DNA from: a virus
Taxonomy: Duplodnaviria > Heunggongvirae > Uroviricota > Caudoviricetes
IMG/VR virus record: IMGVR_UViG_2913177423_000001
Span: 19,415 to 83,414 of that record
Direction: 5' to 3' (one strand)
DNA: 64,000 bases
Positions 6,559 to 7,134 of this stretch are shown here, one piece after another. A program made the translations under genes and the position numbers. The notes beneath the pieces were generated by a model, which was given only the letters and a program-made list of their open reading frames with translations, ran no database searches and was not told the DNA's origin. The first letter of the stretch is position 1. Each line of letters opens with the position of its first letter.

Positions 6559-7134
6559 ATGTTAACGGCGAACGATAACGCGTATGCAGAAGCAGATCTC
6601 ATATTGAGTGACTTCATCGGTCAGCGGGAACGCTGGACACAAAAGCGAGAGGAACTTTATGCCTCGTTAGTTCGCAAAGGTGTCAACATTGAAACCGCTC
6701 AAAGCGGCGATATGACGGTAGTCAGTGTTGGATTACATGGTGTGAGCGTGTCCGCAGCCAATCATGAGCCATACGTAGCGTTATCCGAGTCGATGGCAAG
6801 GCTAATTAAGTTTCTGAAGCAAACAGAAGCCAATAATGTTTTCATCGCCAAAAAGAACATCAATTTTTCTGCCGCCGTGTTCTGGATGATGAAGGGGCTT
6901 GACGCCCGCCGGGCATCATGGCCTAAAGGGAGCTATATGTCGATGTTCCGTGGCAGTATTGGCAGTAAAGAAAAGCTCGTCGAATTCCTGCCGGAAGAAG
7001 CATTCGATATTGTGGAAGGGTGCGATGTGATGGTTATGCCTCGCCTGGTAATGATGAATGGAGATTTACAGGCACAGACAGACTGGTTCGCCACTGGCGT
7101 GGATATTATCGCGACTGACTGGGAGGCATTCTGA
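6559..7134 (+). CDS. hypothetical protein with C-terminal DUF2829-like (Tad2-like) region
   Basis: AGGAG RBS; C-terminal AVFWMMKGLDARRASW ... IIATDWEAF parallels the KKVARRGWNG ... DWFVVE signature of ORF 14771-15457. Confidence 0.55.
   Translation: MLTANDNAYAEADLILSDFIGQRERWTQKREELYASLVRKGVNIETAQSGDMTVVSVGLHGVSVSAANHEPYVALSESMARLIKFLKQTEANNVFIAKKNINFSAAVFWMMKGLDARRASWPKGSYMSMFRGSIGSKEKLVEFLPEEAFDIVEGCDVMVMPRLVMMNGDLQAQTDWFATGVDIIATDWEAF

What the first reader, a model, noticed from the sequence alone, without database searches (positions are those of the whole stretch)
6559..7134. Second, divergent DUF2829-like C-terminal domain in the tRNA island
ORF 6559-7134 ends with AVFWMMKGLDARRASW ... 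IIATDWEAF, paralleling the DUF2829-like signature of ORF 14771-15457. Two divergent copies in one element may target different signalling molecules.
Basis: seen in the sequence. Interest (0 to 1): 0.45.

Follow-up and report, generated by a model that had tools for sequence, protein, structure and literature searches.

The report
Second, divergent Tad2-like sponge gene
A conserved gene of a D6-like (P1-related) E. coli phage-plasmid encodes a two-domain protein whose C-terminal half belongs to the Tad2 family of phage "sponges", which soak up bacterial immune signal molecules; it is a second, divergent copy next to a canonical Tad2 gene in the same element, and its ligand is unknown.

Summary
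ORF 6559-7134 (191 aa, strong RBS) is a real gene under purifying selection (dN/dS about 0.08-0.10). It is orf6 of phage D6, and the window is a D6-like phage-plasmid.

- **Paralogy:** it is homologous to the Tad2 domain of ORF 14771-15457 (hhalign probability 98.8%, E 5e-17). The direct pairwise signal is weak (8 of 2000 shuffles reach it).
- **Divergence:** the pocket core W121, W176 and D182 is kept. The diphosphate-binding GWNG loop is remodelled to SWP-KG. A dsRBD-like N-terminal domain, found only in this subfamily, is added.
- **Context:** the gene always sits upstream of lpa-pacA, down to 28% identity (Pantoea).

"Different ligands for the two copies" fits the sequence and the recent Tad2 literature but is untested. 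This is an uncharacterised member of a known family, of moderate interest.

The parts
6548..6553 (+). Shine-Dalgarno AAGGAG, 5 nt before the ATG of ORF 6559
   Evidence: Read directly from the sequence. It is conserved in relatives down to 55% protein identity.
6559..7134 (+). Gene for a 191-aa two-domain Tad2-like protein (homologue of phage D6 orf6, YP_009914683; phrog_7362)
   Evidence: ORF. It is 91.6% identical to D6 orf6 and matches phrog_7362 at E 5e-125. Homologues occur in 125 plasmids and 30 IMG/VR loci. dN/dS is 0.08-0.10 against close relatives and 0.23-0.24 against 53-54% identical relatives. AlphaFold2 mean pLDDT is 87.8.
6559..6852 (+). N-terminal domain (aa 1-98): helix-helix-strand-strand-strand-long helix, dsRBD-like fold, no Pfam family
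6853..7131 (+). C-terminal Tad2-like (DUF2829, PF11195) domain (aa 99-191)
6916..6930 (+). Remodelled beta1-beta2 pocket loop S120-W121-P122-K123-G124 (canonical Tad2: G-W-N-G-K-G)
   Evidence: Alignment with SPO1, Mod, Hgm and Spt Tad2. W is invariant, N26 becomes P, and G27 is deleted. In SPO1 and HgmTad2 the Asn and Gly contact the ligand phosphates.
7084..7104 (+). W176-F-A-T179-G-V181-D182, equivalent to SPO1 Tad2 W73-V-P-S76-Q-T78-D79 (ligand-contact segment)
   Evidence: W176 is invariant and D182 is present in 27 of 31 aligned subfamily members (3 further rows have gaps). S76 becomes T and T78 becomes V.
7134..7526 (+). Downstream 130-aa orphan gene (D6 orf5, phrog_7004). Its ATG overlaps the TGA of ORF 6559 (TGATG), so translational coupling is likely.
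   Evidence: It is present in most but not all relatives: absent in L033, L035 and Pantoea. It has no Pfam, PDB or other family match.
7635..8027 (+). lpa (late promoter-activating protein), followed by pacA at 8024-9388; conserved downstream neighbours
   Evidence: Pfam PF25716, E 7e-55. The order Tad2-like, (orf5), lpa, pacA holds in all 34 loci examined that carry a homologue.
14771..15457 (+). Paralogue: 228-aa protein with a canonical C-terminal Tad2 domain (aa about 133-228, nt 15167-15454) and an unrelated N-terminal domain
   Evidence: Pfam 74.4 bits. PDB hits to ModTad2 at E 2.5e-24 and SPO1 Tad2 at 2e-18. W155-N156-G157, W212, S215 and D218 are canonical.

Best explanation
ORF 6559-7134 encodes a two-domain protein of a D6-like phage-plasmid. 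Its C-terminal 93 residues are a Tad2-family domain.

By analogy with solved Tad2 proteins, it most likely assembles into a homotetramer. Pockets at the protomer interfaces, lined by the conserved Trp/Trp/Asp, would bind and sequester a nucleotide-derived immune signal. Candidates are a TIR/Thoeris ADP-ribose derivative or a CBASS/Pycsar cyclic nucleotide. This would protect the element during infection, induction or plasmid residence.

The phosphate-contacting loop is rebuilt (GWNG to SWP-KG) and several base and ribose contacts differ. Its ligand preference is therefore probably not the same as that of the canonical Tad2 paralogue at 14771-15457, so the two genes are complementary rather than redundant. 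The dsRBD-like N-terminal domain is an add-on of unknown role: oligomerisation, a second ligand, or a partner.

Shown: gene reality, domain identity, paralogy, pocket differences and conserved synteny.

Inferred: tetramer formation, sequestration, a distinct ligand, and early co-expression with lpa.
For: - **Conserved pocket core:** R118, W121, W176, D187 and W188 are invariant across 16 subfamily members at 18-91% identity. D182 is present in 27 of 31 aligned members.
- **Selection:** the C-terminal domain has dN/dS 0.07-0.10 against close relatives and 0.17-0.18 against 53-54% identical ones, so the domain is maintained.
- **Pocket differences from the paralogue and from all four solved Tad2s:**
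- **Literature:** ligand contacts of SPO1 and HgmTad2; Tad2 homologues vary in specificity across Thoeris I/II/IV, CBASS and Pycsar; Tad2 domains are often fused to other sponge domains; Tad2 is reported in 93% of D6-like phage-plasmids.
- **Both paralogues are retained together:** in D6, in 10 plasmids shared by two partial listings, and a Pantoea P1-like plasmid also carries two DUF2829 genes.
Against: - There is no functional or binding data.
- The Asn and Gly that contact the diphosphate in solved complexes are lost, so binding of known ADPR-type signals may be weakened or absent.
- HgmTad2 cyclic-dinucleotide contact residues (R31, S47, F70, N85) are not conserved. The insertion is about 30 residues, against the 35-41 seen in cyclic-dinucleotide binders.
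- The gene is strongly conserved and fixed in position next to lpa-pacA. The canonical Tad2 gene is hypervariable between the same elements, at 56-77% identity where ORF 6559 is 92-98%. This looks more like a core function than an arms-race gene.
- The tetramer could not be modelled. pTM of 0.54 leaves the domain arrangement open.
- No promoter or operator was identified, so expression timing is unknown.
Confidence: 0.55

Rival explanations
1. The Tad2 fold has been co-opted for a core phage function unrelated to immune-signal sequestration. One example would be a small-molecule or protein-binding regulator acting with the lpa-pacA module (late gene activation or packaging), with the dsRBD-like N-terminal domain binding nucleic acid or a partner protein.
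For: - The gene sits immediately upstream of (orf5)-lpa-pacA in all 34 loci examined that carry a homologue, down to 28% identity.
- Purifying selection is strong and divergence is low compared with the hypervariable canonical Tad2 gene.
- The canonical phosphate-binding Asn-Gly is lost.
- The N-terminal domain has a dsRBD-like fold, with best matches including protein-binding dsRBDs such as TRBP dsRBD3 and Staufen RBD5.
Against: - The ligand-pocket residues W121, W176 and D182 are the most conserved positions of the subfamily. This is expected if a Tad2-type pocket is still in use.
- No non-sponge function has been demonstrated for a DUF2829 domain. The AcrIIA7 anti-CRISPR claim was not reproduced.
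- P1 itself runs lpa-pacA without this gene.
- The canonical dsRNA-binding motifs (GPxH loop, KKxAK) are absent from the N-terminal domain, by inspection of the sequence.
Confidence: 0.22
2. It is a functionally redundant second Tad2 that binds the same signal as ORF 14771. It is kept because it is expressed at a different time or level, for example with the lpa region rather than with the dut / isaA-like gene region around 14771.
For: - Both carry the W/W/D pocket core.
- The two genes lie in different transcription contexts about 8 kb apart.
- Some Tad2s are broad, general Thoeris inhibitors.
Against: - Identity is only about 20% with a rebuilt phosphate loop, different insertions and different N-terminal domains.
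- The two profiles have different nearest solved relatives.
- Both are co-retained across distant elements.
Confidence: 0.15
3. It is a type I toxin-antitoxin toxin ('MW1434 family'), as some RefSeq records name homologues.
For: Annotation strings on several plasmid homologues.
Against: - No NCBIfam model matches either window protein at E < 0.1, other than spurious hits.
- The protein is 191 aa, soluble and two-domain, with no hydrophobic peptide character.
- All structural and profile evidence points to Tad2.
- No antisense RNA partner was identified.
Confidence: 0.02
4. It is a chance resemblance or a non-coding ORF.
For: Direct BLASTP between the two window proteins is only E 0.018 over 20 residues.
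Against: - Pfam match above the gathering cutoff.
- hhalign 98.8%.
- Predicted fold matches solved Tad2 structures.
- dN/dS of about 0.08.
- Strong RBS.
- More than 150 homologous loci.
Confidence: 0.01

Closest known systems
Tad2 (Thoeris anti-defense 2; DUF2829/PF11195), e.g. SPO1 Gp34.65 (PDB 8SME/8SMF/8SMG)
   Same: - Same domain family by Pfam, profile and predicted fold.
- Conserved R22, W25, W73, D79, D84 and W85 equivalents.
- Phage-encoded.
   Different: - 191 aa with an extra 98-aa N-terminal domain, against about 89 aa.
- N26 becomes P and G27 is deleted in the phosphate-binding loop; T78 becomes V and H71 is changed.
- The insertion between the core strands is about 30 residues, against 24.
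- No binding or anti-Thoeris data exist.
Long-insertion Tad2s: HgmTad2/AcrIIA7 (8KBI-8KBM, 8WJC) and SptTad2 (8WJD), which bind gcADPR plus cGG/cGAMP
   Same: - Best sequence-profile matches (E 3e-11 and 7e-12).
- Shared L-P-E motif in the insertion.
   Different: - Cyclic-dinucleotide contact residues R31, D34, L36, K46, S47, F70 and N85 are not conserved (F/R, S, G, E, F, V, T in their place).
- The insertion is shorter than the 35-41 residues reported for cyclic-dinucleotide binders.
- The W21-N22-G23 gcADPR loop is altered.
ModTad2 (9EIB; binds His-ADPR, also inhibits Pycsar)
   Different: - It is the closest solved relative of the other copy, ORF 14771 (E 2.5e-24), not of ORF 6559 (E 3e-8).
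- It has the canonical GWNG loop.
Sponge-sponge fusion proteins (Acb4-Tad2, Tad2-Sequestin/PF21825)
   Same: A Tad2 domain fused to a second small domain in a phage protein. Relatives of ORF 14771 include Tad2-PF21825 fusions.
   Different: The N-terminal domain of ORF 6559 matches neither PF13876 nor PF21825 nor any Pfam family. Its fold is dsRBD-like, and nothing shows that it is a sponge.
Phage D6 orf6 (YP_009914683) / phrog_7362
   Same: Orthologue: 91.6% identity, same length and same position.
   Different: None of substance. It is annotated only as a hypothetical protein.

Membership tests
Tad2 / DUF2829 (PF11195) | Sequence match to the family profile above the curated threshold | tested here: met
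   37.7 bits against gathering 25, E 3e-9, covering 71 of 73 profile positions. The subfamily profile hits seven PDB Tad2 sequences (five distinct proteins) at E 7e-12 to 3e-8.
Tad2 / DUF2829 (PF11195) | Fold: N-terminal helix, antiparallel beta-sheet, short helix before the last strand | tested here: met
Tad2 / DUF2829 (PF11195) | Ligand-pocket residues: Trp-Asn(-Gly) loop, second Trp, Ser/Thr..Thr-Asp segment | tested here: inconclusive
   W121, W176 and D182 are kept, and S76 becomes T. N26 becomes P, G27 is deleted and T78 becomes V. The core is present and the phosphate-contact loop is not canonical.
Tad2 / DUF2829 (PF11195) | Homotetramer with interface pockets | not testable with these tools
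   Only single-chain prediction was available.
Tad2 / DUF2829 (PF11195) | Binds and sequesters an immune signal and inhibits Thoeris, CBASS or Pycsar | not testable with these tools
   This needs biochemistry and plaque assays.
Cyclic-dinucleotide-binding long-insertion Tad2 (HgmTad2/SptTad2 type) | Insertion of 35-41 residues between the core strands, carrying the cyclic-dinucleotide contact residues (R31, S47, F70, N85 in HgmTad2) | tested here: not met
   The insertion is about 30 residues. The aligned positions are F130/R131, F143, V158 and T174.
dsRNA-binding domain (dsRBD), for the N-terminal domain | alpha-beta-beta-beta-alpha fold | tested here: met
dsRNA-binding domain (dsRBD), for the N-terminal domain | RNA-contact motifs (GPxH in the beta1-beta2 loop; KKxAK at the start of helix 2) | tested here: not met
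   By inspection of the sequence: the loop is S-G-D-M and helix 2 starts PYVALSESMA. The motif definitions come from general knowledge of dsRBDs.
MW1434 family type I TA toxin (RefSeq product name on some homologues) | Match to an NCBI family model for that name | tested here: not met
   No relevant NCBIfam hit at E < 0.1 for either window protein.

The most novel reading that the evidence does not exclude
The subfamily-specific N-terminal dsRBD-like domain is itself a new ligand-binding (sponge) module. Alternatively, the rebuilt SWP-KG pocket captures an immune signal for which no Tad2 specificity is yet known. Either way, ORF 6559 would be a dual or novel-specificity sponge that is a near-core gene of D6-like phage-plasmids. 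The reasoning follows the published 'guilt by fusion' logic that uncovered Sequestin from Tad2 fusions.
Probability: 0.12. Interest if true: 0.6.

Novelty: new member of a known kind. Interest (0 to 1): 0.3.

Why it matters
D6/P1-like phage-plasmids are common in pathogenic E. coli, Shigella and Salmonella. Which host defences they neutralise affects their spread and the design of P1-type vectors.

A second, conserved Tad2-type gene with a rebuilt pocket and an extra domain is a cheap, well-defined candidate for widening the known ligand range of sponge proteins. It could also show whether one element uses paralogous sponges for different signals. If it turns out not to be a sponge, it would be the first example of the Tad2 fold used for another purpose.

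Tried and rejected
- **P1 C1 operator** (ATTGCTCTAATAAATTT, up to 3 mismatches): no match anywhere in the window.
- **P1 late-promoter pattern** taken from LPlyz: no more matches than chance, and none near the gene.
- **Candidate operator-like motif upstream of lpa:** not repeated above chance.
- **Sigma-70 scan:** found no promoter on the + strand between the tRNA and the ORF. Expression timing is left open.
- **Idea that P1 isaA/isaB are an IS1-split Tad2 gene:** rejected. Neither has PF11195, and isaA is instead homologous to window ORF 15464-16237.
- **Idea that the N-terminal domain of ORF 14771 is Acb4 (PF13876):** no Pfam hit. It weakly matches the phage L Dec protein instead.
- **PADLOC and NCBIfam:** nothing relevant.
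- **Genome-contig scan with the subfamily alignment:** no confirmed locus. The first two related-loci attempts failed because the alignment was too divergent.
- **afdb50 fold library:** unavailable.
- **orf5 (7134-7526):** an orphan with no family, PDB or distant homologues.
- **Rfam:** no match for the conserved non-coding block upstream of the ORF.

Full report
**1. What the window is**

The region 5500-9500 matches Escherichia phage D6 at about 90% identity over 91% of its length. Only the tRNA/tci part matches P1, P7 and Stx phages. The first 25 kb match about 90-kb non-mobilizable E. coli plasmids at about 92%. The D6 annotation gives the local order as tRNAs, tciA, tciB, orf6, orf5, lpa, pacA, pacB, c1. 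The window is therefore a D6-like (P1-related) phage-plasmid, and ORF 6559-7134 is the orthologue of D6 orf6, annotated "hypothetical protein" (91.6% identity).

**2. The observation**

The ORF and the quoted peptide strings are present, as are ORF 14771-15457 and three tRNAs at 4398-4554 and 6027-6102.

The gene is real:
- AAGGAG lies 5 nt upstream of the ATG.
- All full-length homologues are 184-191 aa.
- tblastn finds it in 125 plasmids and 30 IMG/VR contigs.
- dN/dS is 0.08-0.10 against 88-98% identical relatives and 0.23-0.24 against 53-54% identical ones, in both halves of the protein.
- Occasional decay exists: L032 has an internal stop, and clusters P0006 and P0007 are truncated.

**3. 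Is the C-terminal region DUF2829/Tad2-like, and is it related to ORF 14771?**

- Pfam PF11195 ("Tad2-like") matches residues 102-190 at 37.7 bits (cutoff 25). It matches ORF 14771 residues 136-227 at 74.4 bits.
- The direct comparison is weak. BLASTP gives E 0.018 over 20 residues. Smith-Waterman gives 42 against 25.4 +/- 4.4, with 8 of 2000 shuffles as good.
- Profiles are decisive. A 16-member alignment of the ORF 6559 subfamily (A2) against a 19-member alignment of the ORF 14771 family (A3) gives hhalign probability 98.8%, E 4.7e-17, over 87 columns confined to the C-terminal domains.
- The A2 profile hits solved Tad2 proteins: SptTad2 6.9e-12, HgmTad2/AcrIIA7 3.1e-11, SPO1 Tad2 and ModTad2 about 3e-8.
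- An AlphaFold2 model built on A2 has mean pLDDT 87.8 (pTM 0.54, so the domain orientation is uncertain).
- Its four best Foldseek PDB hits are all Tad2 structures (9EIB, 8WJD, 8SMF, 8KBI; E 2e-4 to 1e-3; TM 0.60-0.71 on the target).
- The best BFVD hits are all Tad2-like proteins, many of them multi-domain.

**4. How divergent is it?**

The published ligand contacts are as follows. In SPO1 Tad2 they are W25, N26, I63, T65, D67, H71, W73, S76, T78 and D79 (10.1101/2023.05.01.538930). In HgmTad2 they are W21, N22, G23, W87, L88, S90, T92 and D93 for gcADPR, and R31, P32, D34, L36, K46, S47, F70, T71 and N85 for cyclic dinucleotides (PMC10680739).

Alignment shows this for ORF 6559:
- It keeps R118, W121, W176, D182, D187 and W188.
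- It changes N26 to P122, deletes the following Gly (SWP-KG instead of GWNGKG), and changes S76 to T179 and T78 to V181.
- The strand before W176 is only loosely alignable.
- The cyclic-dinucleotide contact positions are not conserved.
- The insertion between the core strands is about 30 residues. This lies between SPO1 (24) and the cyclic-dinucleotide binders (35-41).

ORF 14771 is canonical (G154-W155-N156-G157; W212, S215, D218). It is closest to ModTad2 (E 2.5e-24) and SPO1 Tad2 (2e-18).

Across the subfamily, W121 and W176 are invariant and D182 is present in 27 of 31 aligned members. The residue after the first Trp varies (P, N, G, D, A and others), and the Gly is usually missing (26 of 34 rows are gapped there, including a few rows that do not cover this segment).

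The subfamily is small. Only 28 representatives at 50% clustering in 1.84 billion proteins reach E < 1e-3, and about ten of them share the full two-domain architecture.

**5. The N-terminal domain (aa 1-98)**

- It has no Pfam, NCBIfam or PDB sequence match.
- The model shows helix, helix, three strands and a long helix at pLDDT about 90.
- The canonical dsRNA-contact motifs are absent, by inspection.
- It is unrelated to the N-terminal domain of ORF 14771.
- Its role is unknown. A published analysis shows Tad2 is frequently fused to other sponge domains, namely Acb4 and Sequestin/PF21825 (10.1101/2025.07.12.664507). That makes a second ligand-binding module conceivable but unproven.

**6. Context**

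- The stop of ORF 6559 overlaps the start of a 130-aa orphan (TGATG).
- lpa follows (PF25716, E 7e-55), then pacA.
- In all 34 fetched loci that carry a homologue, the order Tad2-like, (orf5), lpa, pacA holds. These include Shigella (54% identity), IMG/VR contigs at 44% (no orf5) and Pantoea pEuc3 (28%).
- P1 itself lacks the gene.
- No promoter, P1-type C1 operator or P1-type late promoter could be assigned.

**7. Two copies per element**

- D6 has both genes. Its canonical copy appears fused or adjacent to dUTPase (compare P0095).
- Ten plasmid accessions appear in both partial listings, 40 of 125 and 60 of 278.
- Pantoea pEuc3 also has two DUF2829 genes: the two-domain one upstream of lpa, and an 85-aa one between the head-processing and portal genes.
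- The canonical copy is far more variable between otherwise similar elements. It is 56-77% identical where ORF 6559 is 92-98% identical.
- A survey already reports "Tad2" in 93% of D6-like and 56% of P1-like phage-plasmids (10.1101/2025.09.12.675607). It does not distinguish copies.

**8. Interpretation**

The best-supported reading is a Tad2-family signal sponge with altered pocket chemistry that complements the canonical paralogue. Tad2 homologues are known to differ in specificity across type I, II and IV Thoeris, CBASS and Pycsar signals (10.1101/2025.08.24.671296).

The main rival is co-option of the fold for a core function tied to lpa-pacA. Its support comes from the fixed position, the strong conservation and the loss of the canonical phosphate contacts. 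Against it stands the selective retention of the pocket Trp/Trp/Asp.

The "type I TA toxin" label on some RefSeq homologues has no support here.

**9. Verdict**

This is an uncharacterised, architecturally distinct member of a known anti-defence family. It is already recognisable by Pfam, its ligand is unknown, and its interest is moderate.

Noticed in passing
window 6331-6446 (+), compared with window 5515-5635 (+): The non-coding block just upstream of ORF 6559 is more conserved than the ORF itself. It keeps roughly 85-90% DNA identity, judged by eye from the alignment, in a locus whose protein is only 55% identical. It is a divergent second copy of an STnc100/PasD-like prophage sRNA element. 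Copy A (5515-5635) hits Rfam RF02076 at 42.4 bits (gathering 47), E 4e-8. Copy B has no Rfam hit but aligns to copy A. Both fold with an enclosing helix and a 3' hairpin with an AGGCA loop, and the helices differ by compensatory changes. Copy A precedes the tciB-like small ORF, and copy B lies about 110 nt upstream of ORF 6559. Whether it is a separate sRNA or an mRNA leader is unknown.
   Followed up: partly
window 14771-15166 (aa 1-130 of ORF 14771): The N-terminal domain of the canonical Tad2 paralogue has no Pfam family. Its family profile matches the phage L decoration protein Dec (PDB 6E3C) at E 4e-6. Relatives of this gene show other fusions: Tad2 with Sequestin PF21825, and dUTPase with Tad2.
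   Followed up: partly
window 14771-15457 compared with plasmid homologues: The canonical Tad2 gene is hypervariable. No plasmid in PLSDB exceeds 77% identity to it, while the same elements carry ORF 6559 at 92-100%. This suggests allele exchange or fast evolution at that locus.
   Followed up: no
window 7134-7526 (+): A 130-aa orphan gene (D6 orf5, phrog_7004) is translationally coupled to ORF 6559. It is restricted to D6-like elements, is more divergent than its neighbours (69-79% where ORF 6559 is 88-92%), and has no detectable family or structure match.
   Followed up: partly
L037 9437-9694 (Pantoea eucalypti pEuc3, record 54437-54694): An 85-aa protein carrying the RefSeq product name that records in this collection give to DUF2829/Tad2-like proteins ('MW1434 family') sits between the head-processing and portal genes of a distant P1-like phage-plasmid. 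It has KWGN in place of GWNG and lacks the second pocket Trp. This is a third kind of Tad2-like variant.
   Followed up: no
window 6027-6102 (+): The gene called tRNA-Met (anticodon CAT) corresponds to the gene annotated trnI (tRNA-Ile) in P1 and P7 records. It is probably a lysidine-type tRNA-Ile. This was not checked.
   Followed up: no
window 15464-16237 (+): The 257-aa ORF after the canonical Tad2 gene is the homologue of P1 IsaA (47% identity), whose function is unknown. In P1 the Tad2 gene is absent between ssb and isaA.
   Followed up: partly
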